Notes under the pieces: model-generated
Told to the model about the DNA's origin: nothing
Database searches by the model: none
What the model saw: only the letters and a program-made list of their open reading frames with translations
DNA from: Oscillospiraceae bacterium
GTDB taxonomy: Bacteria > Bacillota > Clostridia > Oscillospirales > CAG-272
Direction of reading: 5' to 3'
NCBI GenBank assembly: GCA_015064295.1
Contig: SVSM01000002.1
Location: 5,872-69,871 of the forward strand
Length of the DNA stretch: 64,000 bases
Program-made: the position numbers and the translations under genes
In this document: one piece after another, positions 1 through 11,886 of the stretch
Layout of the letters: every line of letters starts with the position of its first letter
Position numbering within the stretch: the stretch's first letter is position 1

Positions 1-3000
1 AAAGCGTCTAAAACCAGTAGCAAAAACATACCCAGCCAAACGCTTTCACCGTCTCCTTCCCCAACCCGATTCATGCCGTCGTTCCAGTCTCCTCCCCCCA
101 TCAGGGGCAGGCCGTGGCGGCCAAAGACGAGGGAGACCTCAATGGCGCGGGCGCAGTGGGAGTAGAGGGATTCCCGATAGCGGCCTTTCACCGCCGTTTC
201 GTAGCGGTCGTGCTCCTTGTCGGACAGAGGCGGAGAGCTGAGGTAGGGGAGCTTGATGTCAAGGATCCCGTCGTCACCGGTTGCCGCAAGGTACTCGGCC
301 ACCGCATAGGGCAGCCAGAGGCGGTCGTCGGTGTAGCGGCTCCGCACGCCACGGGAAACGCCGCGAAGGATATGCCACCAGTGCATCACGTCCCCCTCCT
401 CGTATTGATGACAAGCGGCGCGCAGGATGTGGACCTTGGCCGTTTGCGGTGAGAACCGCAGAAGGGCAAGGCAGTCCTGAAGCTGGTCACGGAAGCCGTA
501 GGCGCCTCCCGACTGATAGAAGCCGGTTCGCCCAAGGTAGCGGCAGACCAAGGCCTGGCGGGGCAGGTAATCGTTTACCATGACGGCCAGATGCCGGTCG
601 GGAAGGGTTACCGTCAGGTTAGGGAGGTGAGCGTTAAGATGGCGTTCGTAGGCATCGGCACAGGCCGTAAAGGCCTCTTTGGTCGCATATCGCTTGCGGA
701 TATGGGCAAGAGTCGCCTCTCCTCCTGTGGGATAGGCACCCAGAAGGAAGGCCGTCATGCCGTCAAAGTCCCGCCGCACCAAAAATCCCACGTCATAGCC
801 GTCGTGTGATACGATGCGGGGAAAGAATTTGGTGGTATCCCCCTCGGTGACCGCCTCCACGGGACGGCTGCGGGCGATGCGTTCCCCCATCACGGGGGTA
901 ATTTGATAGGTGAGGTCATCGGAACGGCCTCCCTCAGGTAGCGAAACGGTGATCACCTTGCAGGGGAGGCGAGGGTCTACGGTAGCGGTCACGGAGTAAG
1001 CCTTCCCATTTACCGTACCGTACCATCGAGCCCCACCGTGACCGAAGACCACGCGAGAGGAGGCGGCACACAGGTCGTAGCATCCCCCTTCGGTTTGGTA
1101 TAGCAGCCGCTCACCGTCAAAGTCCAGGAGATTGTCCCCGCGGAAGGGGGTGATCCGCCGTTCGTGGCAGTTTCCGATCCAGGTGTAGCCAAGGGAATTT
1201 TGCGTGACGAGCGTCCCGAAATATCCGGTGGCGTAAACGTAGGAGAGGGGAGATCGCTCAACACCCTTGACAATCTCAAAGCCCCGTTTTCGGAAGACGC
1301 CCCCAAAGACAGCAGGGTCATCTCCCGCATCGGGAGATTGAGGGAGGGCCTCCGGCGCGGTGATGATGGGGGAGACAGCGGGAGAGGGAAGAATGGCCTC
1401 ACGGAGAAGGGCGTCAGGCGTAAAGTCGGCATCCAGCACGGCCGTAAGGCAAGAGACAGCGGTAAGAAGCTCCCGCTCCTCCATACCGTCAAGGGGATAG
1501 ATCCCCCCGGTGTGGTGGAGCAGATAGCCCACGGCGCAGACCTCTGCCGCTTCGGTAATGGCGGCAAGGGAGGGATTCCGATAGTCACCGCAGCTCTTGT
1601 AGAGGATGACCAGATCCAAGCGAATGCCCGAGAGAGCCAAATACTTGTGAGCCGCCATAAAGTCGGTCAGGTGCCGCAGGGCAGGAGAGCCCTCCTTGGG
1701 AGGCTCGGGAAGAATCAGACACACGATAGGAAGGTCTCCCGAGATCCCGTGGCGCCACAGATCCCCGATGGAAAGGGAGCGTCTCAAGACGCAGGGCCTT
1801 GGGGGCTGATGCAGACAGGTCAGCATCAGCTCGGCGAGCTTGGCAAAGGAGGGCCGTCCCCCGCACCCCGCCAGCTTCTCCACCACCGTCCGAGACAGGC
1901 GGGAGGCGGCGTACTTGGCGGCGTTTTGCTTGCGGGAGGCTTTCAGCTCAAGGCGTGCCGCCTTCAGGGCAGTCAGGGCATCCTCCTGCCCCTTACCGAC
2001 GCTGAGGAGCAGATTTCCTACGTAGCGTCCCTTGGCATGGGATTCCTTTTTGATGGCGCAGAAGGGATTGATGAGGGTGCCGCTTTTGCAGGAGAAGCCA
2101 GCGTCAAGGAGGGCTTCCACGTCGCCGTCTTGGTAGAGCAGTCCCAGAACGTCCCGTCTGGTCTCAAAGACCTCGTGACCGCCGTAGCTTTCAAGGGAGA
2201 CGGCAAGACAGAGGTCAGGCCGTTTTCCATCCTTTTGGCGGCGGGTGTAGAGAATGGCTGACTCATCGTTCAGATAGGTGGCCGTTACGTGAAGATCGGC
2301 GTAGGCAGGGTGTGCATCCCGATCCCTTGCGGTGGTAAGAGAGGGCTCAAAGGTCAAAAGAGGGCAAATGGAGCGGAAGTGCCCCTCCACCTCCAAGGTC
2401 ATCACGAAGGAGCGACAGCGTCCCAAGACGGACAGCGACAGTTCAGCCATCAGCTTGGGGGTATCCTTACGCCAGACCAGACGGTTTCCCGTGACGCCGC
2501 GGGAACGGCTTCCCGACAGCATATCGTACCGAACACCGTCGGCGGCAAAGAGGAAACGGGGACGGTGGGCGCGACCGAAGGTAAAGGGATCGACGGCGAC
2601 GTCCACACCCATGGCCGAAAGCTTCAGAAGGTCGTCCTTGGCCACCGCCGCAAGGCCGTTTTCGGCGATCATGGCGGCGTGTGGATGGGAGGGCGGCGCC
2701 TCCGATTCCCGTAGCCATTTGGACACCTGGCCCCTGGTAAGGGGGTGGGCCTGAGGGGCTCGCAGACGGGCGTTTTGAGGGGAGAGCGGCGCGTGAATGG
2801 GAATCTTTTCCTCAAGCAGCTCGGCCGAGGAGGCGGTGTAGGGATCGGCCATAAAATCCCGAACGAAGATACCGTCAAAGCAGGCGTTGGCACAGGAGAG
2901 CAGGCTCATGCCCATGTGATGGGACATATAGGAGCGAATGACGGCGTGTCCGTTGCCCACCCGGGAGGGGGTAAAATCGATGGCCTCGTAGAAGCCGTAG

Positions 3001-6000
3001 GGGCCGTACATGTCCAGTTTTTTCAGCTGCTCCAGGTTGTCCAGGACCTCACCCGGGCAGATCTTCAGACAAAGAAAGGAGGCGTAGGGTGCGATGACGT
3101 TATCCCGATGAAGCCCACGCTTCAAGCCCAAAGAAGGGGTGCCCACCGCCTTGTACTGATAGTTCATGTCGGCGTCGAAGCGGTAATATCCGCACTCGGA
3201 GCGGCCCCAAACGCCGTGTGTGGCGGCGATCCGTTGCTCACGGACGGCAAAGGAGAGGGCCTCGTAGCTTAACGATCCGAATCGGGTGGGGAGGAGCAGG
3301 GCGGGCATGAGATATTCAAACATGGTTCCCGTCCAGGAGGCAAGCCCGAGGTAGCCCTCCCGCCCGATGAGAATGCGGCCCAGGCGGTTCCAATGGTCCC
3401 GAGGCACCTGTCCCGTAGCAATGGCAAAGTAGGAGGTGGTGCGAGCCTCACTCATAAAGAGGTCGTAGCAGCCCTCACCGGGATGGTCCTCCGCCGTGTT
3501 CAGGCCAATGCGGAAAAGCTTTTTTCTCTCATCGTAAAGGAGGGAAAAATCCGCTCCGTCGATGAGGGACCGCACCTGCTTTTGCAGATCGGCAAACCGC
3601 TGAGTACCGTCGTCAAGACGGGAAAGTCCCCGGGAGAGTGTCACAAGACAGGTCACAAAGTTACCGGAATCGACGGTGGAAACGTAGGGCGCCCCCAGAA
3701 TGGACAGGTCCTCGGTGCTGTACCAGTTGTAGAGATGCCCGTTCCATTTTTGCAGACGGTCCACGGTGGTGAGCGTTTTTTTCAGCCGTCCCAGCAGCTC
3801 GTTCTTAGAGAGGAAGCCAAAGGCCTCGGCCGCCATACAAGAAAGGAGGTATAGGCCGATGTTGGTGGGAGAGGTGCGATGGGCGGTCACCTCGGTGGGG
3901 GAGAGCTGAATATTATCGGGTGGAAGGTCGTTGTCCTCTTGGGACACGTGATCGGCAAAGAAGCGCCATTGATCCCTGGCGTAAGCCTGAATGGTCGCCT
4001 TATCCTCTTTTCGGATCTTGGGTGCAGGAGAGAAGGGCTTGCCGATCCGATAGGCAAGAAAGGGAAAGCAAAGCCATAAAAGCCCTAACCCCCGTCCCGG
4101 CAGATCGGGATAAAACACTACGAGCGCCAGACCGAAGAGGAGGGAAGGAAGCATACGGTAGAGATAGAGGGATAAGCCCTTCATACCCTGCTCCGCCTCG
4201 GAGGCCGTCTTCCATTCCAGCATCCTCTTGCGGGAGAAAAGCATCCGATACCCGGCGCGGAGCACGGCGTCGGCGTTCATGACTGCGCTTTGCAAAAGTG
4301 AGGAAAGGGAATAGAGGAGGTTACCGAGGGCGTGCAGCATCCCCGGCAAAACAAAGGAGAAGAACCGCCGTCCGCTGAAGCGGATCAGACGGATCACGGA
4401 AAGGAGGCAGGGGAGCACAAGATAGGCCAAGGCAAGGTGGAGAGACGGCTCGGCTACCGACTCGGGGGCAAAGAGACAGAGAAGGATGGCGAGAGCCGAT
4501 GAAACCGGCACCAGGGCGCGTCTTACGTTATCGTAGATCTTAAATTTGGAGAGCCGCGAGATGGGATTACGGTAGAGAGCCCCCTGACTGTCCTGCACGT
4601 AGCGTCCCGTGAAGGCTAGGGCCTGGACGTCGCCGCGGATCCATCGATGGGATCGGTCAAGACAGGTAAGCGGGCTTCCCGGCAGATCGTCGGTGAGAGG
4701 GAGATCGGTCAGGGCACCGGCCCGCAGGCGGCTTCCCTCCAGAAGGTCGTGGCTGAGGACGGCGCCGTCGGGGAATTGGCCGTCGATGAGGGCAGAGAAG
4801 GCGTCCACGTCAAAGATGCCCTTTCCGCAGAAGATTCCCTCATCAAAGAGGGTCTGATAGGTCTCGTAGGCAGCGGAGGCATAGATGTCGGTGCCGCCGT
4901 TGCCGGCCGACAGGACGGCAAAGGGGGTCCTCTCGGTAGAGGCAAGGGACGCCTCCATGCGGGGCTGCAGAATGGCGTGACCCTTCACCACGATGCCGTT
5001 TTCAAGGATGGGCCGATTGGCGGGGTGGAGCATGGCTCCCACCATATCCCGTACCGCCCCGCGGTAGAGACGGGTGTCGGAGTCCAGGGTGATGACGTAG
5101 CGAATGGTGTCGGGGATGTCCCCGCCGCAGAAGGAGACGATGGTCGTCTCACCGCCCCGTAGGAAGCGAGTCAGCTCAATGACCGCGCCACGCTTGCGCT
5201 CCCATCCCATGTATTTTCCTTCGGTGGGGGCAAAGCGGCGCCGACGGACGAAGAGGTGAAGGGAACAGCCGTAGGCTTGGTTGAGAGCATCCATGGCCTC
5301 CCGTATCTGAGAAATGGCGGTCTCATCCCCTGCCGTTTCGGCCGTATCAGCCTCCTTCAGGTCGCAAAGAAGGCCGAAATGAGCATGGGGATCCCGATTG
5401 GCAAAGTAGCAGTTTTTCAGCTTTTCCACCAGGGCAAGGTCGTCCTTCCGACCCGTTAAGAGGGCGGTAATGACCGTAAGGGTGGCGGCGTGGGGAGGAA
5501 GCGCATCCAGCTTTTTTCGCGGAATGGGGCGGACCCTTACCAAATAGGAGAACAGCAGATCTCCCACCTGCTTGGCGGCCTCCGACAGAGGGAGAAGCAA
5601 AAAGAGCCAAATGGCCGGAAAGCGGCAAAGGGCCAGCGCCCCTGCGGAAAAAAGCAGAAACAGCATGGCCAATATCGGGAAATAGAATCGTGACGCTGGA
5701 CGCTTTTCCTGACCGAGCAGCTCTCCTGCCGAAAGGATGCCTGCCGCTTCTGCCTCGGTAATGGCAAAGCGCTTGGCGTAGGAGCTGACGCGACGACGAC
5801 AGAGATCGCGGGTCACCTCGTCGCAGCCGGCAAAGTGATCGTTTGCCGATAAGATCCGTTCGGCCTCCGACAGACGGAGGAAGAGAAGGTCGATTTCGAT
5901 GAAATGGAGGTTTTTCAGGTACTCCACCGTGTCGCAAAGGGCCTCGTCGGAACGGACGGGGAGCGCCAGCTCCTTAACGGCCCAGACCGTGGCGTAATCG

Positions 6001-6284
6001 TAAAACAACGAAAGCTCACGGTAGGAATAGCTTCCTCCCATGGCCTCAGCGATGGCGTCGACGTCGGTGAGACGCCGGGGAGACACGGCCCGTCCCACGG
6101 CTTCAAAAAAAGTGGGGAAACGGATCCGCCCGCCTATGGCACGACCGGCCTTGTCGGTGTAACCGAGAAGGAGGGAGAAGAGATCGGAATCGGCATAATA
6201 TTTTTCCAGCTTTGCCACGTTTGCTTTGAGATCGAATTTTCGGTAATCGGTCATACTATCGCCCTTGTGAAAAGATTTTTCCAT
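1..6284 (-). CDS. Giant cyclic beta-1,2-glucan synthase-like protein (N-terminal TM region, GT84 glycosyltransferase, C-terminal GH94 phosphorylase-type domain). The 3' end lies outside the window, and more than 2090 codons are visible.
   Basis: Not in the ORF track because there is no stop codon in the window. None of the listed minus-strand ORFs between 1 and 6284 is in the frame whose codon-start coordinates are 2 mod 3, which fits one uninterrupted frame. My translation from ATG 6284 (alternative ATG 6254, preceded by AAGGG) gives MEKSFHKGDSMTDYRKFDL... It then shows GT84-like motifs: ITLDSDT, SHDLLEG, RSHRWIRGD. Near 380-410 it shows GH94-like EEGDVMHWWH, then DDRLWLPY and GGGDWNDGMN. 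Confidence 0.8.
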   Translation of the reverse strand, partial: MEKSFHKGDSMTDYRKFDLKANVAKLEKYYADSDLFSLLLGYTDKAGRAIGGRIRFPTFFEAVGRAVSPRRLTDVDAIAEAMGGSYSYRELSLFYDYATVWAVKELALPVRSDEALCDTVEYLKNLHFIEIDLLFLRLSEAERILSANDHFAGCDEVTRDLCRRRVSSYAKRFAITEAEAAGILSAGELLGQEKRPASRFYFPILAMLFLLFSAGALALCRFPAIWLFLLLPLSEAAKQVGDLLFSYLVRVRPIPRKKLDALPPHAATLTVITALLTGRKDDLALVEKLKNCYFANRDPHAHFGLLCDLKEADTAETAGDETAISQIREAMDALNQAYGCSLHLFVRRRRFAPTEGKYMGWERKRGAVIELTRFLRGGETTIVSFCGGDIPDTIRYVITLDSDTRLYRGAVRDMVGAMLHPANRPILENGIVVKGHAILQPRMEASLASTERTPFAVLSAGNGGTDIYASAAYETYQTLFDEGIFCGKGIFDVDAFSALIDGQFPDGAVLSHDLLEGSRLRAGALTDLPLTDDLPGSPLTCLDRSHRWIRGDVQALAFTGRYVQDSQGALYRNPISRLSKFKIYDNVRRALVPVSSALAILLCLFAPESVAEPSLHLALAYLVLPCLLSVIRLIRFSGRRFFSFVLPGMLHALGNLLYSLSSLLQSAVMNADAVLRAGYRMLFSRKRMLEWKTASEAEQGMKGLSLYLYRMLPSLLFGLALVVFYPDLPGRGLGLLWLCFPFLAYRIGKPFSPAPKIRKEDKATIQAYARDQWRFFADHVSQEDNDLPPDNIQLSPTEVTAHRTSPTNIGLYLLSCMAAEAFGFLSKNELLGRLKKTLTTVDRLQKWNGHLYNWYSTEDLSILGAPYVSTVDSGNFVTCLVTLSRGLSRLDDGTQRFADLQKQVRSLIDGADFSLLYDERKKLFRIGLNTAEDHPGEGCYDLFMSEARTTSYFAIATGQVPRDHWNRLGRILIGREGYLGLASWTGTMFEYLMPALLLPTRFGSLSYEALSFAVREQRIAATHGVWGRSECGYYRFDADMNYQYKAVGTPSLGLKRGLHRDNVIAPYASFLCLKICPGEVLDNLEQLKKLDMYGPYGFYEAIDFTPSRVGNGHAVIRSYMSHHMGMSLLSCANACFDGIFVRDFMADPYTASSAELLEEKIPIHAPLSPQNARLRAPQAHPLTRGQVSKWLRESEAPPSHPHAAMIAENGLAAVAKDDLLKLSAMGVDVAVDPFTFGRAHRPRFLFAADGVRYDMLSGSRSRGVTGNRLVWRKDTPKLMAELSLSVLGRCRSFVMTLEVEGHFRSICPLLTFEPSLTTARDRDAHPAYADLHVTATYLNDESAILYTRRQKDGKRPDLCLAVSLESYGGHEVFETRRDVLGLLYQDGDVEALLDAGFSCKSGTLINPFCAIKKESHAKGRYVGNLLLSVGKGQEDALTALKAARLELKASRKQNAAKYAASRLSRTVVEKLAGCGGRPSFAKLAELMLTCLHQPPRPCVLRRSLSIGDLWRHGISGDLPIVCLILPEPPKEGSPALRHLTDFMAAHKYLALSGIRLDLVILYKSCGDYRNPSLAAITEAAEVCAVGYLLHHTGGIYPLDGMEERELLTAVSCLTAVLDADFTPDALLREAILPSPAVSPIITAPEALPQSPDAGDDPAVFGGVFRKRGFEIVKGVERSPLSYVYATGYFGTLVTQNSLGYTWIGNCHERRITPFRGDNLLDFDGERLLYQTEGGCYDLCAASSRVVFGHGGARWYGTVNGKAYSVTATVDPRLPCKVITVSLPEGGRSDDLTYQITPVMGERIARSRPVEAVTEGDTTKFFPRIVSHDGYDVGFLVRRDFDGMTAFLLGAYPTGGEATLAHIRKRYATKEAFTACADAYERHLNAHLPNLTVTLPDRHLAVMVNDYLPRQALVCRYLGRTGFYQSGGAYGFRDQLQDCLALLRFSPQTAKVHILRAACHQYEEGDVMHWWHILRGVSRGVRSRYTDDRLWLPYAVAEYLAATGDDGILDIKLPYLSSPPLSDKEHDRYETAVKGRYRESLYSHCARAIEVSLVFGRHGLPLMGGGDWNDGMNRVGEGDGESVWLGMFLLLVLDA

Positions 6285-6424: not shown

Positions 6425-6829
6425 TTATAGGGAATCCGCCACCGTCACGCTGTCCAGCTTGTCAGCGATGAGCATATTGATCTCGTCGAAAACACGGTTA
6501 AAGTAACAAACGCATCCCCCCTGCTCCCCGTCGTGACGGCAGACGAAATCCTCCGACAGACAGCGGGAGATGACCAGAGGACCCTCCACGATCTCCCAAA
6601 TGGTACGGAGGGTGATGGTATCGGCGGGACGGGACAGCTCGTAGCCACCGTTTGCCCCCTTGTAGGAGGTAACGACACCGCCCCCTACCAGCTTGCCGAG
6701 AATCTTCAAGGTAAAACGCTGGGGGACCTGGGTCAGCTCCGAGACGGTACGGGCATCGGTTACGGCGTTTCGCTTGGCAAGGCATTGCATGATGCGAAAG
6801 GCGTAATCGGTTTCCATGTTGATTTTCAT
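6425..6829 (-). CDS. Rrf2 family transcriptional regulator
   Basis: MKINMETDYAFRIMQCLAK...YKGANGGYELSRPADTITL is a typical Rrf2 winged helix, with C-terminal Cys residues (CRHDGEQGGCVC). I chose the internal ATG at 6829 because AAAGGAAAG lies upstream. The longer ORF N-terminus is not Rrf2-like. Confidence 0.85.
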   Translation of the reverse strand: MKINMETDYAFRIMQCLAKRNAVTDARTVSELTQVPQRFTLKILGKLVGGGVVTSYKGANGGYELSRPADTITLRTIWEIVEGPLVISRCLSEDFVCRHDGEQGGCVCYFNRVFDEINMLIADKLDSVTVADSL

Positions 6830-8338: not shown

Positions 8339-9421
8339 ATGAAAACGACAAGATTGCAAGGAAAACGGTTAGGAAGGCTTGCACAGCGAGCCCTCATCGT
8401 TATGGTTACACTGCTTTTGAGCCTTCCGCTGGTAACGCGGGCGGCGGAGACGGGAGAAGCCATGTCGGAGCCGGGGCATTTTCGATACGAGGGCGTTGCG
8501 CTGTGCCCCGGCGGCTGTGCCTTCGGGGTAAAATTTTCCACCAAGGGCGTCTTGGTGGTGGGGACGTCGGCGGTGAGGCATGAGGATAAGGAAGTCAACC
8601 CTGCCGAGGAAGCGGGGATCAAAGTAAAGGATATTTTGCTGGCCATCAACGGCCATGAGGTCAACGCTGTGAAGGAGGTCGGCGAGGCGGTTTCGGCAAG
8701 CAACGGACAGCCCCTCACGTTGACGGTAGAGCGTGGCGGTAAAACGAAAACACTGACGCTGACACCGGTGAAGACGCAGGAGGGCTACCGAGCCGGCATG
8801 TGGCTCAGAGACAGCACCGCAGGCATCGGTACCGTCACCTACGTTGACCCGCAAACGGGAGAATTCGGCGGCCTGGGGCACGGCATCTGCGACGTCGACA
8901 CCGGTGCGCTGATGCCGATGAAGCGGGGCTCGGCCATGAAGGTGGAGATCGGCGGCGTGGTCAAGGGACAGGTAGGAAAGCCGGGAGAGATCAAGGGCTA
9001 TTTTCGGCCCGAACGGTGCGGAAACGTGCTGTGTAACACCGTGTGCGGCGTCTTCGGTGTGTTCAGCGAGATTCCGCAGGGAATCTCGGAGGCCATTCCC
9101 GTGGCATCGCGCCATGAGCTGAGCGAAGGAAACGCCGAGATCATCTGCACCCTGGGAGAGGACGGCCCCAAGCACTATACGGTGGCCATCTCCAAGATCG
9201 ATCGGAACGGTACCGATAACAAAAACTTTGTCATCACCGTCACCGACACGGCGCTGAAGGAACGCACCGGCGGCATCGTCCAAGGGATGAGCGGCTCTCC
9301 GATCCTTCAAAACGGCAAGCTGGTTGGCGCTGTAACCCACGTGCTGATCAACGATCCGGCGAAGGGGTATGGGATCTTCATCGAAAATATGTTGGATGCG
9401 GCGGAACTGCCGAATCTATGA
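8339..9421 (+). CDS. spoIVB: SpoIVB peptidase (S55 signalling serine protease of sporulation)
   Basis: Signal/TM segment, then a PDZ-like region (GIKVKDILLAINGHEV), then the S55 core (GIGTVTYVDPQTGEFGGLGHGI ... GIVQGMSGSPILQNGKLVGAVTHV). Confidence 0.92.
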   Translation: MKTTRLQGKRLGRLAQRALIVMVTLLLSLPLVTRAAETGEAMSEPGHFRYEGVALCPGGCAFGVKFSTKGVLVVGTSAVRHEDKEVNPAEEAGIKVKDILLAINGHEVNAVKEVGEAVSASNGQPLTLTVERGGKTKTLTLTPVKTQEGYRAGMWLRDSTAGIGTVTYVDPQTGEFGGLGHGICDVDTGALMPMKRGSAMKVEIGGVVKGQVGKPGEIKGYFRPERCGNVLCNTVCGVFGVFSEIPQGISEAIPVASRHELSEGNAEIICTLGEDGPKHYTVAISKIDRNGTDNKNFVITVTDTALKERTGGIVQGMSGSPILQNGKLVGAVTHVLINDPAKGYGIFIENMLDAAELPNL

Positions 9422-9440
9422 GCGGCTTAGTTTAAGAATA

Positions 9441-9489
9441 AAAGGCAATATCACCCCGACACCAAAATGGGGAATATTGCCTTTTTTTA
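9441..9489. terminator. Hairpin terminator between the convergent spoIVB and RT genes
   Basis: AAAGGCAATAT ... ATATTGCCTTT stem with an inner CCCC/GGGG pairing, followed by TTTTTTT on the plus strand. Confidence 0.6.
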
Positions 9490-9494
9490 TTGCA

Positions 9495-10418
9495 TTATTG
9501 ATTATCTTTTAAAATATTTAAGATTTGAACCTTATAATTTAAAAATTCTTTGTTGTCAGGGGTTATCTGTAACACGTAATTGATCTGCCCAAGCAACCGT
9601 GAGAGATAGTTATATGGATTTTCCGGACTCCCCATGTGCGTCAAATGCTCTTGTACACCGAATTTTTTGCAGTAAAAAACTTCTTGACGAATCTGTCTTC
9701 GATAGCTTTTTTCCGTGTTTATTTTTTCATTAACCACGATCCCCGTGACCGTCTTTTTATTTCCTCCGGTGAAGCAACGTGTCTTTCTTCTGTTTAGTAT
9801 AAACCCTAATGATTTTAACTCGCCTTCAACGAATTTTATGACATTGGATTCGTCGAAGCTTCCGGAAAACGACATATCATCACAATAACGGGTATAACGG
9901 ATTTTACGTTCCTCACACCATTCACCGACCGTTTGGTCAAAATCACGCATAATGATATTGGATATTACGGGGGATGTGGGTGCGCCTTGCGGGAGAGATT
10001 CACCCTTGTAGCAAAGTAAGGAAAGCAGCACCCGAATTTGTTCGGAATATTTTTTTGCAGGGAAAACCTTTTCTTTCACAAGAGAATACTTTATACTGTC
10101 AAAAAAATTGTAAATGTCAAGCTTTAAAAGCTTTTCTTTTCCAACGTGACAAATTGCGTTTTTTCTTATACTGCTTGCCGGTTTATATGCTTTGGCATAA
10201 ATGGAAACCGGCTCGTATGCGAGAAGCTTTTCCGAAATGGCACGCTGTATTTTTTTTAACGGTTCGTCCGGGATAGAAAGCACTCGTATGCTTCCGTCGG
10301 ATTTTGGAATGCTTTTATTGTGATAATGGGCGTTTATATTGTTGCTTGTGGCATAAAGTGTTTTTGCTGTAACGCCTAAATCGGTTTCTAATGACTGCAA
10401 TTCCTTGTATACGATCAT
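9495..10418 (-). CDS. Retron-type reverse transcriptase (RNA-directed DNA polymerase), 307 aa
   Basis: Motifs line up closely with classical retron RTs such as Ec86: IPKSDGSIRVLSIP, LDIYNFFDSI, LPQGAPTSPVISNI, YTRYCDDMSFS (YxDD box) and the retron-typical KTVTGIVVN. There is no maturase, endonuclease or fused effector domain. A GGAG Shine-Dalgarno lies 7 nt upstream of ATG 10418. Confidence 0.9.
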   Translation of the reverse strand: MIVYKELQSLETDLGVTAKTLYATSNNINAHYHNKSIPKSDGSIRVLSIPDEPLKKIQRAISEKLLAYEPVSIYAKAYKPASSIRKNAICHVGKEKLLKLDIYNFFDSIKYSLVKEKVFPAKKYSEQIRVLLSLLCYKGESLPQGAPTSPVISNIIMRDFDQTVGEWCEERKIRYTRYCDDMSFSGSFDESNVIKFVEGELKSLGFILNRRKTRCFTGGNKKTVTGIVVNEKINTEKSYRRQIRQEVFYCKKFGVQEHLTHMGSPENPYNYLSRLLGQINYVLQITPDNKEFLNYKVQILNILKDNQ

Positions 10419-10627
10419 AGGTTATCTCCTCAAACAATACAAATTGTATAATGAAAGGCGCAGGAGTAAGGATATGCGACGAAAGTCGCATATAGCGCAC
10501 TTGTGCGCGAATTACTTCAAGCTCTTTCATTTGAGCCTGCGAATACGAAAAGATTAACTGCCGAGAACGACTCGCTCACGGTTCGATAATAAATCGAATA
10601 ACACTATTGTTTTTTTGGAGTATTGTA
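10419..10627 (-). ncRNA. Candidate retron msr/msd non-coding RNA (ends approximate)
   Basis: Lies immediately upstream of the RT on the same strand and downstream of a TTGACA-17-TAGTAT promoter. Terminal complementarity: CTCC...AAACAATA (10620-10605) with TATTGTTT..GGAG (10439-10426). Hairpins at 10582-10598, 10561-10581, 10495-10508 and 10472-10493. An enclosing stem ATGAAAG/CTTTCAT spans 10451-10530. Confidence 0.55.
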
Positions 10628-10633
10628 ATGTAT

Positions 10634-10662
10634 ATACTACACCTTAATTAAAGTTTTGTCAA
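10634..10662 (-). promoter_or_regulatory. Sigma-A type promoter driving the ncRNA-RT transcript
   Basis: On the minus strand: TTGACA (10662-10657), a 17-nt spacer, then TAGTAT (10639-10634). Confidence 0.55.
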
Positions 10663-10803
10663 GTGGCAATGATTCCTCATGCTTTATTTTCCGGAAACGG
10701 CAACACCGACAATCCCGAGGAGAAGCTCATGCATTTACGGGAACAGGGCTTGCATGACTAAAACCGTCGCCTTTGCCTGATAAACATTCCCTCTGATCGC
10801 ATG

Positions 10804-10843
10804 AAAAACAAAACGAACCGGTTCTTTTGAACCGGTTCTTTTC
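10804..10843. terminator. Bidirectional hairpin terminator downstream of abrB
   Basis: GAACCGGTTC TTTT GAACCGGTTC, flanked by an A-run and a T-run. On the minus strand GTTTTGTTTTT follows the stem. Confidence 0.7.
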
Positions 10844-10868
10844 ATATAGTAGCCTTACGGCAGTATCC

Positions 10869-11114
10869 TTACAGTGAAGCGATCTTGGCAATACAGCTAC
10901 GGCAGAGCAGCTTGCCGCCGAAATGCGTGACGTTATCGGCGTCCCCGCAGAAAATACAGGCGGGCTGATATTTTTTCAGAATGATACGGTCGTCGTCGAT
11001 AAAAATTTCGACGGCATCGCCCTTATTGTCGATCTCCATGCTTTTTCGGATTTCAATGGGAAGCACGATGCGTCCCAGCTCGTCCACTTTTCTGACAATT
11101 CCCGTCGATTTCAT
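10869..11114 (-). CDS. abrB: AbrB/SpoVT-family transition-state regulator with a C-terminal 4-Cys motif
   Basis: MKSTGIVRKVDELGRIVLPIEIRKSM...IILKKYQP is a canonical AbrB swapped-hairpin N-domain. The C-terminus carries CIFCG...CRSC. Confidence 0.88.
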   Translation of the reverse strand: MKSTGIVRKVDELGRIVLPIEIRKSMEIDNKGDAVEIFIDDDRIILKKYQPACIFCGDADNVTHFGGKLLCRSCIAKIASL

Positions 11115-11186
11115 TGTAGGTTCTCCATTTCTTAGGGACGTTTTGGTGCGAGAGGGGCTCCCGACGCCAAAGGGGGTATGACTTGT

Positions 11187-11193
11187 TTCGACA
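11187..11193 (-). promoter_or_regulatory. Possible Spo0A box upstream of abrB
   Basis: Plus-strand TTCGACA equals minus-strand TGTCGAA and matches the 0A-box TGNCGAA. It lies about 75 nt upstream of the abrB start. A one-mismatch copy (TACGACA) is at 11269-11275. Confidence 0.3.
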
Positions 11194-11304
11194 ACATATT
11201 ACCATAAATTGTAAGTTCTGTCAACAGTTCTCAAAGGCAAAATCGGATTTTTTACAAATTGTTCACGTTACGACAAACCGAAATCAGAGGAAAGGGAGCG
11301 AGAT

Positions 11305-11886
11305 ATGGCACTCAAGGTATCGGGGATCTTAATGGCGATCTCCTTTTTGTCGGCGGCCCTTGGCGGAAGAATGGAGGCGGTATCGGAGGCAGCCCTTGCG
11401 GGCTGTAGCAAGGCGGTGACGCTGACGCTGTCCCTTTTGGGGCTCATGTGTCTCTGGGGAGGCATTATGGGGGTGGCAAGGGAAAGCGGGCTTCTTGACC
11501 GCTTGGCAAAGCTCCTGTCGCCGCTTTTGCGGCTGGTCTTTCCCGACGCCTACCGAAGCGGGAAGGGGATCCGCGAGATCGCGGCGGCCATCGTGGCCAA
11601 CGTTCTCGGGGTAGGGAACGCCGCCACCCCTCTTGCCGTATCGGCCATGGAGGCCTTGGCCGAGGGACACGAGGGGGAGACGGCCAGTGACGATATGGTG
11701 ACCTTCACCGTCCTCGGCACGGCCTTTCCCGCCTTCGTTCCCACCACGGTCATTGCCCTTCGGGCGGCGGCGGGGAGCCGGAACCCCTTTGATGTCTTGC
11801 CCGCCGTTTGGATCTGCTCGGTCAGCTTGTCGGTCTTTGCCGTTCTGTTGGCAAGGGGGCTGCGGCGAGTAGGAAAGCGCTCATGA
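11305..11886 (+). CDS. spmA: Spore maturation protein A (nucleoside-recognition domain membrane protein)
   Basis: A family-typical stretch, NVLGVGNAATPLAVSAMEAL, and the overall SpmA-like layout. It is translationally coupled to spmB. Confidence 0.8.
   Translation: MALKVSGILMAISFLSAALGGRMEAVSEAALAGCSKAVTLTLSLLGLMCLWGGIMGVARESGLLDRLAKLLSPLLRLVFPDAYRSGKGIREIAAAIVANVLGVGNAATPLAVSAMEALAEGHEGETASDDMVTFTVLGTAFPAFVPTTVIALRAAAGSRNPFDVLPAVWICSVSLSVFAVLLARGLRRVGKRS

What the first reader, a model, noticed from the sequence alone, without database searches (positions are those of the whole stretch)
9441..10843. Orphan retron cassette: RT plus structured ncRNA, with no cis effector, between spoIVB and abrB
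Seen in the sequence: an AT-rich block of about 1.2 kb interrupts otherwise G+C-rich core DNA. Sampled lines give about 23-40 percent G+C inside versus about 68 percent next door. Its only convincing ORF is a 307-aa RT. The RT motifs track classical retron RTs closely: IPKSDGSIRVL, LPQGAPTSPVISN, YTRYCDDMSFS, KTVTGIVVN. Upstream on the same strand lie about 450 nt without a credible ORF but with a promoter and nested hairpins. Both flanks are core genes with their own terminators (9441-9489 and 10804-10843). I see no integrase, transposase or flanking direct repeats. Established knowledge: characterised retron defence systems are tripartite (RT, msr/msd RNA, and an effector that is fused or adjacent). 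Published classifications group them by that effector. Inference: there are three possibilities. The element may depend on an effector encoded elsewhere. It may be a minimal RT-plus-ncRNA system acting through its cDNA product, conceptually like the RT-plus-ncRNA DRT systems. Or it may be a decaying remnant. The intact ORF, Shine-Dalgarno and promoter argue against simple decay.
Basis: partly seen in the sequence, partly recalled or inferred. Interest (0 to 1): 0.85.

Follow-up and report, generated by a model that had tools for sequence, protein, structure and literature searches.

The report
Stand-alone Ec107-type retron cassette
This is a complete, recently acquired copy of a known kind of bacterial retron (the E. 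coli Ec107 family): a reverse transcriptase and its template RNA with no partner toxin gene, so it is a new example of a known puzzle, not a new kind of system.

Summary
A cassette of about 1.25 kb and 38% G+C (window ~9434-10690, minus strand) sits between spoIVB and abrB in ~56% G+C DNA. It holds a sigma-70-like promoter, a ~190-nt structured ncRNA, a 307-aa RT and a terminator.

It belongs to the Ec107 (Retron-Eco5) family. PADLOC's RT_Ec107-like model matches full length (E 4e-126). The RT has YCDD, NAxxH and VTG. The ncRNA has the retron a1/a2 stem and an invariant AG priming site. A five-helix structure is supported by covariation in 38 homologues (94% of cells paired; 27 of 33 pairs compensatory). 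The model built from it also finds E. coli Ec107's own ncRNA.

No neighbour gene is conserved across 81 loci. The RT is under strong purifying selection (dN/dS ~0.06). A sister species has unrelated DNA in the same slot. Between two strains the cassette is 99.6% identical while its flanks are ~96%.

However, stand-alone Ec107-branch retrons were described in 1992 and 2020, so this is a new member of a known kind. What such retrons do remains unknown.

The parts
9434..9491 (.). Hairpin terminator shared by the convergent RT and spoIVB (arms 9434-9456 and 9469-9491, T-run on both sides). This is the 3' edge of the cassette.
   Evidence: Inverted repeat I2: 23-nt arms, 83% complementary. This stretch is still 78% identical to L001, and identity drops to 36% immediately beyond it.
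9495..10418 (-). Retron reverse transcriptase, 307 aa. It has a YCDD catalytic box, region X NAICH (residues 87-91) and region Y VTG (residues 224-226). There is no fused effector domain.
   Evidence: ORF. RVT_1, 2.3e-20. PADLOC RT_Ec107-like, 3.7e-126 over residues 1-300. 42% identical to the E. coli Ec107 RT. dN/dS about 0.06. Motif positions.
10426..10431 (-). Shine-Dalgarno sequence GAGGAG, 7 nt before the ATG. Its GGAG can pair with CUCC (10620-10617) as an outer extension of the a1/a2 stem.
   Evidence: Sequence. The MFE fold pairs CUCC with GGAG. A regulatory role is inference.
10432..10439 (-). a2 arm (UAUUGUUU) of the retron ncRNA.
   Evidence: Helix 1 of the consensus structure. Six of its 7 modelled pairs show compensatory changes.
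10440..10553 (-). Predicted msd, the template for about 110-115 nt of msDNA. It contains the basal stem (10518-10512 / 10469-10463), inner hairpins at 10508-10495 and 10493-10472, and a side hairpin at 10537-10520.
   Evidence: Helices 4 and 5 are covariation-supported. The complementary DNA folds at -22.7 kcal/mol, z = -4.6. The 5' limit at 10553 is inferred from the geometry of E. coli Ec107 (plus my recollection of the Ec107 msDNA length) and has not been measured.
10561..10599 (-). msr hairpins. Hairpin 1 (10599-10582) is variable in sequence. Hairpin 2 (10581-10561) has the family-conserved apex GCGAGUCG (10575-10568) and is the likely RT recognition element.
   Evidence: Helices 2 and 3. 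The apex bases are invariant or nearly so in 38 sequences and are identical in E. coli Ec107. The recognition role is inferred from work on Ec86 and Ec73 summarised in PMC6868368.
10604..10604 (-). Predicted priming (branching) guanosine, immediately 3' of a1 in the context AAUA-G-U.
   Evidence: A16 and G17 are invariant in alignment A2. The position is equivalent to the G of CAAUAGC in E. coli Ec107. The conserved AG(C) priming context is described in PMC6868368. The 2'-5' branch itself has not been tested.
10605..10612 (-). a1 arm (AAACAAUA).
10427..10620 (-). Full match of the retron ncRNA (msr-msd) to covariance model R1. It is the only match in the 64-kb window.
   Evidence: 106.3 bits, E 1.2e-21, model positions 1-180 of 180.
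10634..10662 (-). Sigma-70-like promoter TTGACA-17-TAGTAT. The transcript is predicted to start at about 10627.
   Evidence: Promoter scan, 10 of 12 matches. Many homologues have a TATAAT-like box at the same distance 5' of a1.
10663..10698 (.). 5' edge of the acquired cassette.
   Evidence: Three independent estimates agree. Homology to L001 starts at about 10680. Homology to the retron-less abrB relative L091 ends at 10698. The zone of low strain divergence ends at 10677-10705.
10699..10868 (.). Native abrB 3' region with its terminator (10811-10842).
   Evidence: 82% identical to L091, which has no retron. Homology with sister species L177 resumes at 10810. Terminator-like hairpin.
8339..9421 (+). 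spoIVB, the flanking core gene, convergent with the RT.
   Evidence: Peptidase_S55, 4.3e-79, plus PDZ.
10869..11114 (-). AbrB-type regulator (SpoVT-AbrB domain plus a C-terminal CxxC...CxxC), the flanking core gene.
   Evidence: PF04014, 1.5e-10. Synteny abrB-spmA-spmB-MscS is conserved in L177.

Best explanation
Window ~9434-10690 (minus strand) is a complete stand-alone retron of the Ec107 / Retron-Eco5 family (RT clade 2 of Mestre et al.). It was acquired horizontally and recently by an uncultured Oscillospiraceae bacterium.

How it works:
1. A sigma-70-type promoter (10662-10634) drives one transcript carrying msr-msd and the RT ORF. The promoter and gene order are shown. Co-transcription is inferred.
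2. The ncRNA folds with its ends paired (a1 10612-10605 with a2 10439-10432). This places G10604 at the base of the stem. The fold is shown by covariation.
3. The RT recognises the msr hairpin that carries the conserved GCGAGUCG apex. It primes DNA synthesis from the 2'-OH of G10604 and copies about 110 nt of msd. Host RNase H removes the template, leaving a branched msDNA bound to the RT. This step is inferred by homology to E. coli Ec107, whose ncRNA matches the same model.
4. No dedicated effector gene belongs to the unit. This is shown for cis, both in this window and across 81 loci.

The 1.2-kb cassette moves alone between distant hosts (Gammaproteobacteria, Clostridia, Bacilli, Erysipelotrichia). 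It is nevertheless kept under strong purifying selection, and in most hosts its G+C has drifted to match the genome. I therefore infer that the RT-msDNA complex is itself the working product. It would act either alone or with factors that every host or phage supplies (for example RNase H, recombination or repair nucleases, or ssDNA-binding proteins), and not with a specific unlinked toxin. The physiological output is not known; phage sensing or decoying and a starvation-linked role are candidates.
For: Identity:
- PADLOC RT_Ec107-like 3.7e-126, ahead of RT_III-A at 1.5e-102.
- 42% identity over 292 aa to the RT of the E. coli pyrE-RT-slmA locus.
- YCDD, as in Ec107 (PMC6868368). The NAxxH and VTG residues are invariant in the family.
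- All of the closest solved structures are retron RTs.

ncRNA:
- Five-helix consensus in 38 homologues: 94% of cells paired against 34-45% when partners are slid, 27 of 33 pairs with changes on both sides, and 0 of 500 shuffles reaching the observed values.
- Model R1 finds a full-length match just upstream of the RT in nearly all 80 loci, including ones not used to build it, and in E. coli Ec107 itself (56.7 bits).

No cis effector:
- The largest neighbour cluster covers 8 of 81 loci at inconsistent positions.
- 37 of 81 downstream genes are convergent.
- Same-strand downstream genes are unrelated housekeeping genes.
- The 64-kb window has no known retron effector.

Functional constraint:
- dN/dS 0.055-0.08, with dS above 1.
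- RT G+C tracks flank G+C across 80 loci, r = 0.92, range 0.19-0.69.

Recent acquisition here:
- G+C deficit of -0.19, the largest in the family.
- The cassette is 99.6% identical between two strains whose flanks are 95.8% and 96.8% identical.
- Sister species L177 has an unrelated 0.94-kb filler in the same spoIVB-abrB slot.

Literature:
- Ec107 makes msDNA and sits in intergenic DNA with no mobile-element features (PMC6868368).
- Stand-alone cassettes in clade 2 are described (PMC7736814).
- Clade 2 retrons are among the best RT-DNA producers (10.1101/2024.01.25.577267).
Against: No product was observed. msDNA synthesis, the branch point and the msDNA length are inferred by homology only. 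The priming context here is AGU, not the commoner AGC.

Only 64 kb of the genome is visible, so an unlinked effector cannot be excluded.

In three close relatives (L001, L172, L173) a Phd-Doc toxin-antitoxin pair lies directly upstream on the same strand. A loose functional link with a toxin is therefore conceivable in part of the subclade.

Mestre et al. consider secondary loss of a PRTase effector plausible for this branch.

No phenotype has been reported for any member of the family. Millman et al. left Ec107 out of their defence tests (10.1101/2020.06.21.156273).
Confidence: 0.8

Rival explanations
1. The retron is one half of a split system. A dedicated toxin or effector encoded elsewhere in the genome is held in check by the RT-msDNA complex, as in tripartite retrons, but the genes are unlinked.
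For: All functionally dissected retrons use an effector (PMC7736814, PMC12548924). Only 64 kb of this genome can be inspected. Phd-Doc lies next to the retron in L001, L172 and L173.
Against: The cassette transfers alone as a 1.2-kb unit into very different hosts and stays under selection. An unlinked specific partner would not travel with it. Phd-Doc is absent in L175, L176 and the window, and it occurs without the retron in L179. Mestre et al. report that most genomes with orphan retrons lack homologues of the known retron-associated proteins (PMC7736814). PADLOC finds no retron effector in the window.
Confidence: 0.25
2. The cassette is a selfish or neutral passenger. It makes msDNA but gives its host nothing, and it persists only through horizontal spread into permissive intergenic slots.
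For: It was recently acquired here. It sits in a variable slot that holds other cargo in relatives. No phenotype is known for the family. In E. coli the Ec107 locus is present in only 382 of 5426 complete genomes.
Against: There is no transposase, integrase or terminal repeat that could provide self-mobility. In most hosts the RT's G+C matches the genome (r = 0.92), which implies long vertical residence. Over that residence the RT kept dN/dS at about 0.06 and the ncRNA kept compensatory pairing. A neutral, non-mobile element would decay.
Confidence: 0.12
3. It is a decaying remnant of a type III-A retron (with a PRTase effector) that has lost its effector and is no longer functional.
For: RT_III-A models are the second-best PADLOC hits. 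Mestre et al. place the Ec107 branch next to PRTase-linked RTs and suggest loss of the associated protein (PMC7736814).
Against: The ORF is intact and full length, with all family-invariant residues. dN/dS is about 0.06. The promoter, Shine-Dalgarno sequence and all five ncRNA helices are intact. No PRTase-like fragment lies in the interval or in the homologues. Loss of an effector may well be the evolutionary origin of the branch, but the present unit is not decaying.
Confidence: 0.03
4. It is not a retron at all but another RT-plus-ncRNA defence system (DRT2- or DRT9-like), a group II intron RT or an Abi RT.
For: Like the DRT systems, it is a compact RT-plus-ncRNA locus with no effector.
Against: NCBIfam Drt2 scores 67 bits against a cutoff of 390, Drt3a 51 against 200, and group II intron RT 66 against 300. 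Every top PADLOC and PDB hit is a retron RT. The ncRNA has the retron a1/a2 stem and priming-G topology and is homologous to that of Ec107. Rfam finds no intron or other known RNA family.
Confidence: 0.01

Closest known systems
Retron-Eco5 (Ec107) of E. coli; RT clade 2 'stand-alone' branch of Mestre et al. 2020; PADLOC model RT_Ec107-like
   Same: The RT is about 307-319 aa with YCDD, NAxxH and VTG, and is 42% identical. The ncRNA is homologous, with the same CAAUAG a1 end, GCGAGUCGC hairpin apex and GUAUUG a2. Both are cassettes of about 1.2-1.3 kb in intergenic DNA between convergent or adjacent core genes, close to a terminator palindrome. Neither has an integrase, flanking repeats or an effector (PMC6868368).
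   Different: The host phylum differs: Bacillota (Oscillospiraceae) here, whereas Mestre et al. describe clade 2 as mostly Gammaproteobacteria. The site differs: spoIVB-abrB here, pyrE-slmA in E. coli. The priming context is AGU here and AGC in Ec107. The msd sequence is unrelated in detail. In some close relatives the cassette is part of a small island with Phd-Doc, bracketed by repeats of the spoIVB 3' end.
Type III-A retrons (RT + PRTase-like effector +/- winged-helix protein)
   Same: These are the nearest effector-bearing RT relatives (PADLOC RT_III-A 1.5e-102). They lie in the same RT clade according to PMC7736814.
   Different: The defining PRTase-like neighbour is absent here and in all 81 loci examined. 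The only PRTase nearby is a housekeeping nicotinate PRTase about 3.3 kb away, separated from the retron by five core genes.
Tripartite toxin-antitoxin retrons such as Eco1 (Ec86) and Sen2 (St85)
   Same: The reverse-transcription chemistry is expected to be the same: a1/a2, a priming G, and an msDNA bound to the RT. Their RTs are recognisably homologous (Ec86 RT 1e-23; retron_St85_RT 219 bits).
   Different: In those systems the RT-msDNA holds an adjacent or fused toxin in check. There is no such gene here. The retron_St85_RT score falls below its cutoff of 235.
DRT2 / DRT9-type defence RTs (RT + ncRNA, no separate effector). Comparison from my own knowledge of the 2024-2025 literature.
   Same: Conceptually similar: a two-part RT-plus-ncRNA module whose cDNA product would itself be the active agent.
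   Different: They belong to a different RT lineage (Drt2 67 bits against a cutoff of 390) and have a different RNA architecture. There is no evidence here for rolling-circle or homopolymer synthesis. The resemblance is functional speculation only.
Clade 11 stand-alone retrons (Actinobacteria) of Mestre et al. 2020
   Same: This is the other described group of (msr-msd)-RT cassettes with no associated protein (PMC7736814).
   Different: It is a different RT clade and ncRNA type. I did not compare it directly.

Membership tests
Retron (general) | RT with retron-specific region X (NAxxH between motifs 2 and 3) | tested here: met
   NAICH at residues 87-91. N87, A88 and H91 are invariant in 19 family members. 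The criterion comes from PMC6868368.
Retron (general) | Region Y beginning at a conserved VTG in motif 7 | tested here: met
   KTVTGIVVN at residues 222-230. V224, T225 and G226 are invariant.
Retron (general) | Catalytic YxDD box intact | tested here: met
   YCDD at residues 178-181, invariant in the family.
Retron (general) | ncRNA next to the RT on the same strand, with its 5' and 3' ends paired (a1/a2 inverted repeat) | tested here: met
   a1 at 10612-10605 and a2 at 10439-10432. Helix 1 is 93.6% paired and 6 of its 7 pairs are compensatory.
Retron (general) | Conserved priming guanosine at the 3' end of a1, in an AG(C) context | tested here: met
   A16 and G17 are invariant in 38 sequences. 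In the window this is G10604, in the context AGU. Its function as a branch point has not been tested.
Retron (general) | Structured msd (stem-loop) between msr and a2 | tested here: met
   Helices 4 and 5 are 95.5% and 97.9% paired, and 11 of their 12 pairs are compensatory. The DNA fold has z = -4.6.
Retron (general) | Production of msDNA with a 2'-5' RNA-DNA branch | not testable with these tools
   This needs nucleic-acid extraction from a host that carries the locus.
Ec107 / Retron-Eco5 family (clade 2 stand-alone branch) | RT scores best against the Ec107-like profile over its full length | tested here: met
   RT_Ec107-like 418.6 bits, residues 1-300 matched to profile positions 7-305 of 307. 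The next best is RT_III-A at 341.2 bits.
Ec107 / Retron-Eco5 family (clade 2 stand-alone branch) | ncRNA homologous to that of Ec107 | tested here: met
   Model R1, built from the window's relatives, matches the E. coli Ec107 ncRNA full length (56.7 bits, E 1.2e-12) and the Budvicia, Leminorella and Pseudocitrobacter loci.
Ec107 / Retron-Eco5 family (clade 2 stand-alone branch) | No conserved associated protein | tested here: met
Ec107 / Retron-Eco5 family (clade 2 stand-alone branch) | Placement inside the Ec107 branch of a retron RT phylogeny | not tested
   No reference tree or set of type III-A sequences was available. Placement rests on HMM score ranking only.
Type III-A retron | Adjacent PRTase-like effector (with or without a winged-helix protein) | tested here: not met
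   None is present in the interval, in the window, or next to any of the 81 homologues.
DRT2 / DRT3 / DRT4 defence RTs | RT reaches the NCBIfam family cutoff | tested here: not met
   Drt2 67.2 against 390, Drt3a 51.3 against 200, Drt4 22.2 against 450.
Group II intron RT/maturase | RT reaches the TIGR04416 cutoff and intron RNA domains are present | tested here: not met
   66 bits against a cutoff of 300. Rfam finds no intron family at E <= 10.

The most novel reading that the evidence does not exclude
Stand-alone Ec107-type retrons, including this one, could be a self-sufficient two-component system. In that case the RT-msDNA complex would be the effector itself, for example a decoy or sensor acting on conserved phage or host nucleic-acid enzymes, with no protein toxin at all. 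They would be widespread in gut Clostridia and spread as 1.2-kb cassettes or mini-islands that target the 3' ends of core genes such as spoIVB.
Probability: 0.25. Interest if true: 0.65.

Novelty: new member of a known kind. Interest (0 to 1): 0.33.

Why it matters
The function of effector-less retrons is a recognised open question, raised by Mestre et al. in 2020 and still open for Ec107 decades after its discovery. This locus does not answer it.

It does add useful facts:
- The Ec107 family is abundant and diverse in gut Clostridia and related Bacillota, not only in Gammaproteobacteria.
- Its RT and ncRNA are under strong selection in the absence of any linked gene.
- The bare 1.2-kb cassette is the unit that moves.

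Together these points argue that the two-part module is functional on its own or with universal host factors.

The covariance-supported ncRNA model and the exact cassette limits give a clean construct for msDNA and phenotype tests. They would also serve retron-based editing tools in Firmicutes. For someone scanning genomes, the practical lesson is that 'retron without effector' is an expected call for RTs that match RT_Ec107-like.

Tried and rejected
- **Rfam scan of 9000-11400 at E <= 10.** It gave only chance hits on the terminator hairpin. No curated retron RNA family matched, so I built a model myself.
- **ORFs of about 90 aa ending at the RT start in about 10 homologues, as candidate accessory proteins.** Rejected. 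Their sequences are R/S/C/H-rich translations of the ncRNA, their shared peptides mirror the a2 and msr motifs, and the R1 matches cover them. The 610-aa 'fusion' in L033 is likewise an ORF that runs through the ncRNA.
- **Similarity between the window and L001 inside the spoIVB 3' end, as proof of co-transfer.** Not accepted on its own, because distant SpoIVB genes show the same protein-level conservation (L104, 78% aa). Later calls did show displaced spoIVB-end repeats in relatives, but none in the window.
- **Empty site via exact AbrB look-up.** All long enough contigs carry the retron, and four contigs simply end inside the ncRNA. L091 gives only the abrB-side boundary.
- **Empty site via SpoIVB in metagenome contigs.** No relative above 65% identity was found, and none had an RT. 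The useful sister locus L177 came from the protein search. It shows alternative occupancy of the slot, not a clean empty site.
- **Plasmids.** No DNA match.
- **Phages and viral contigs.** Only RTs at 41% identity or less, and no ncRNA match. Phage carriage of this subclade is not supported.
- **Phd-Doc as the missing effector.** Rejected as a constant partner (see the rival explanations).
- **Nicotinate PRTase 3.3 kb away as an analogue of pyrE or the type III PRTase.** Rejected. It is a housekeeping gene in conserved synteny and is separated from the retron by five core genes.
- **Primary Ec107 papers (PMC176584, PMC178209).** The Ec107 msDNA length and branch position are therefore from memory and are used only for a rough estimate of the msd limit.
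Full report
**1. What is in the sequence**

The only long ORF in the AT-rich block is 9495..10418 on the minus strand, 307 aa. In 200-nt windows the G+C is 0.345-0.43 inside the block and 0.55-0.665 in the flanks.

The flanking genes are SpoIVB (8339-9421, plus strand; Peptidase_S55 4e-79 with a PDZ domain) and an 81-aa AbrB/SpoVT-type protein (10869-11114, minus strand).

On the RT strand there is a TTGACA-17-TAGTAT promoter at 10662->10634. About 210 nt then precede the ATG, and this stretch folds well below shuffled controls (-58.2 kcal/mol, z = -3.9). Hairpins with T-runs lie at 9434-9491 and 10811-10842.

A repeat search with no distance limit finds no direct repeats flanking the block beyond chance 9-10-mers. 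The ten nearest genes include no integrase or transposase.

**2. The RT is an Ec107-type retron RT**

- Pfam gives only RVT_1.
- PADLOC's best model is RT_Ec107-like: E 3.7e-126, 418.6 bits, residues 1-300 on profile positions 7-305 of 307. RT_III-A follows at 341 bits.
- NCBIfam ranks retron models first. It puts Drt2, Drt3a, Drt4 and group II intron RT far below their cutoffs.
- All of the closest solved structures are retron RTs: Ec83, Ec86, Ec78, Kva2, Ec67 and Eco8.
- The protein has the retron-specific NAxxH (NAICH, residues 87-91) and VTG (residues 224-226). It also has the unusual YCDD box, which the Simon et al. review singles out for RT-Eco5 (Ec107) (PMC6868368).

I located the classical Ec107 locus in E. 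coli. It reads pyrE - RT - slmA and is present in 382 of 5426 complete genomes. The two RTs are 42% identical over 292 residues.

**3. The upstream RNA is a retron msr-msd, shown by covariation**

A scan of representative genomes returned 80 loci encoding relatives of the RT. They come from Oscillospiraceae, Lachnospiraceae, Erysipelotrichaceae, Bacilli and a few Enterobacteriaceae. Their upstream regions share this order of elements:

- a -10 box
- GAACAAUAG, which is a1 followed by an invariant AG
- a variable hairpin
- a hairpin with the conserved apex GCGAGUCGC
- a structured middle part
- GUAUUGUUCC (a2), just 5' of the Shine-Dalgarno sequence

RNAalifold recovers the a1/a2 stem, the conserved-apex hairpin and an msd basal stem. 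With two further hairpins added, the five-helix structure tested as follows:

- 94.0% of cells form standard pairs, against 34-45% when partners are slid by 1-3 columns.
- 27 of 33 pairs show changes on both sides.
- None of 500 shuffles reaches the observed values.

A covariance model built from this alignment (R1) gives one hit in the window, at 10427-10620 on the minus strand (106 bits). It finds a full-length hit just upstream of the RT in almost every locus. That includes loci that were not in the seed, such as Budvicia, Leminorella and Pseudocitrobacter. It also finds E. coli Ec107's own ncRNA, at 56.7 bits, E 1e-12, with the same CAAUAG, GCGAGUCGC and GUAUUG elements.

In the window the parts are as follows:

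| Part | Window coordinates (minus strand) |
|---|---|
| a1 | 10612-10605 |
| Predicted priming G | 10604 |
| msr hairpin 1 | 10599-10582 |
| msr hairpin 2 | 10581-10561 |
| msd stems | 10540-10457 |
| a2 | 10439-10432 |
| Shine-Dalgarno | 10431-10426 |

By analogy with the geometry of Ec107, the msDNA should be about 110-115 nt, templated by roughly 10553-10440. That DNA folds with z = -4.6. The length and the branch point are inferences.

**4. There is no cis effector, here or in the family**

I clustered all ORFs of 80 aa or more within 4 kb of the RT in 81 loci. The largest family occurs in only 8 loci, at inconsistent distances and orientations.

The downstream gene is convergent in 37 of 81 loci. 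It is on the same strand and within 130 nt in 27. Twenty of those 27 were annotated. They are unrelated housekeeping genes: M13 and U32 peptidases, RimM, TrmO, a PLP enzyme, Mur ligase, ZIP and MatE transporters, and PfkB. Defence-like genes occur only sporadically.

Apparent 90-aa ORFs that abut the RT start are translations of the ncRNA.

In the 64-kb window PADLOC finds no retron effector. Its only hits are housekeeping look-alikes: an IscS-type desulfurase, the TatD next to metG, and a Csa3-like regulator.

This matches Mestre et al. 2020. They describe 'stand-alone (msr-msd)-RT cassettes' and 'orphan retrons' in the Ec107 branch of clade 2 and leave their function open (PMC7736814). A 2026 survey reports an 'Ec107_like' covariance model among the models most frequently detected in metagenome-derived genomes.

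**5. The unit is functional, not decaying**

Against five close relatives (79-86% aa identity) dN/dS is 0.055-0.08, with synonymous sites saturated.

Across 80 loci the RT's G+C runs from 0.19 to 0.69 and tracks the flanks (r = 0.92). The difference is at most 0.08 in 73 loci. This implies long residence in most hosts with function retained.

**6. How the window's copy got there**

The window has the largest G+C deficit in the family, -0.19. Three independent comparisons place the cassette limits at about 9434 and 10680-10698:

- Homology to the 83%-identical relative L001 spans just this interval.
- L091, a relative that shares abrB but has no retron, is homologous only up to 10698.
- In a second strain of the same species (L084) the flanks are 95.8% and 96.8% identical, but the cassette is 99.6% identical (5 differences in 1257 nt).

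A sister species, L177, has SpoIVB at 83% identity and flanks at 74-78% nucleotide identity. It keeps the synteny spoIVB ... abrB-spmA-spmB-MscS. Its interval, however, holds an unrelated 0.94-kb segment with a 73-aa lipoprotein-like ORF, no RT and no R1 match.

The retron is therefore a recent, lineage-specific occupant of a variable intergenic slot. This resembles Ec107, which replaces a 34-bp palindrome between pyrE and ttk/slmA (PMC6868368).

No plasmid matches the cassette. Viral contigs hold only RTs at 41% identity or less, with no ncRNA match.

**7. Mechanism**

Shown:
- the promoter-ncRNA-RT-terminator architecture
- the conserved retron RNA topology with an invariant AG
- an intact catalytic RT
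- the absence of a linked effector
- purifying selection
- recent horizontal arrival as a bare cassette

Inferred by homology to an experimentally validated retron:
- the RT binds the msr hairpin
- it primes from the 2'-OH of G10604
- it copies the msd into an msDNA of about 110 nt that stays bound to the RT

Inferred by argument: the cassette moves alone between phyla and is retained under selection. Its working partner, if it has one, must therefore be something every host or phage supplies, not a specific unlinked toxin.

The biological output is unknown. The literature offers only starvation-induced expression for Ec107 (PMC6868368) and high RT-DNA yield for clade 2. I rate the identity and msDNA part at about 0.8-0.9 and the 'no dedicated effector' part at about 0.5.

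**8. Verdict**

Its premise, that characterised retrons are always tripartite, is not. The element belongs to the Ec107/Retron-Eco5 family, whose effector-less state has been described since 1992 and was discussed explicitly in 2020. It is a new member of a known kind.

It has modest added value:
- the family's breadth in gut Bacillota
- clean cassette limits
- a tested ncRNA model
- population evidence for recent transfer

Interest is about 0.33.

Noticed in passing
L001:8866-8987 and 11000-11121; L179:4964-5108 and 6679-6822; L172:6011-6120: In close relatives the slot downstream of spoIVB behaves as an island hot spot. In L001 the unit [Phd-Doc-ncRNA-RT] is bracketed by a 122-nt direct repeat (94%) of the spoIVB 3' end. 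In L179 the unit [130-aa ORF, HTH, Doc, Phd], which has no retron, is bracketed by a 145-nt repeat (87%). In L172 a 110-nt fragment of the spoIVB 3' end follows the retron even though the next gene is a radical-SAM enzyme. This suggests mini-islands that integrate at the spoIVB 3' end, yet no recombinase is visible.
   Followed up: partly
L001, L172, L173 (about 270 nt upstream of the retron ncRNA); L179:5941-6554: A Phd/YefM-Doc(Fic) toxin-antitoxin pair lies directly upstream of the retron on the same strand in three close relatives. It is 84-86% identical at the nucleotide level to a copy in L179 that has no retron. It is absent in L175, L176 and the window. The two look like independent modules, but a functional link has not been excluded.
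   Followed up: partly
window 10483-10601 (ends of contigs L083, L085, L086, L089): Four independent metagenome contigs of the same species (97% identical) all end inside the retron ncRNA, at window positions 10557, 10483, 10601 and 10572. The cause could be strain variation, the hairpins, or a coverage anomaly from msDNA-derived reads. It remains unexplained.
   Followed up: no
L005:9561-9995: This homologue has a split, much longer ncRNA. The a1-AG and the GCGAGUCGC hairpin lie at about 9568-9640, while the msd stem and a2 lie at 9820-9995. That implies about 250 nt of extra RNA, possibly a much longer msd.
   Followed up: no
L070:9274-9494 (RT start at 9941): The ncRNA match lies about 450 nt upstream of the RT start, not directly beside it, with a 94-aa opposite-strand ORF in between.
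   Followed up: no
window 3-6284 (minus strand): A very large ORF of more than 2094 aa runs off the start of the window. It carries GH94 catalytic and supersandwich domains and a glucoamylase-like domain, so it looks like a cyclic beta-1,2-glucan or cellobionic-type glycosyl hydrolase or phosphorylase.
   Followed up: no
window 10869-11114 (minus strand): The AbrB-type regulator has the canonical N-terminal SpoVT-AbrB domain, but its C-terminus is a CxxC...CxxC zinc-ribbon-like tail (ACIFCGD...LLCRSCIAK) in place of the Bacillus AbrB C-domain. The identical protein occurs on 17 contigs.
   Followed up: no
L177:5683-5904: In the sister species the spoIVB-abrB slot encodes a 73-aa acidic, low-complexity protein with a lipoprotein signal (MKKLFSILLAVALISATAMLASC...) within AT-rich DNA (G+C 0.44 against 0.53 in the flanks). 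This is another piece of accessory cargo in the same slot.
   Followed up: no
window 10426-10431 with 10617-10620: The RT's Shine-Dalgarno GGAG can pair with CUCC just 5' of a1, extending the a1/a2 stem. Folding of the ncRNA could therefore occlude RT translation, which would be a possible autoregulatory feature. L001 also has CUCC at the equivalent place.
   Followed up: no
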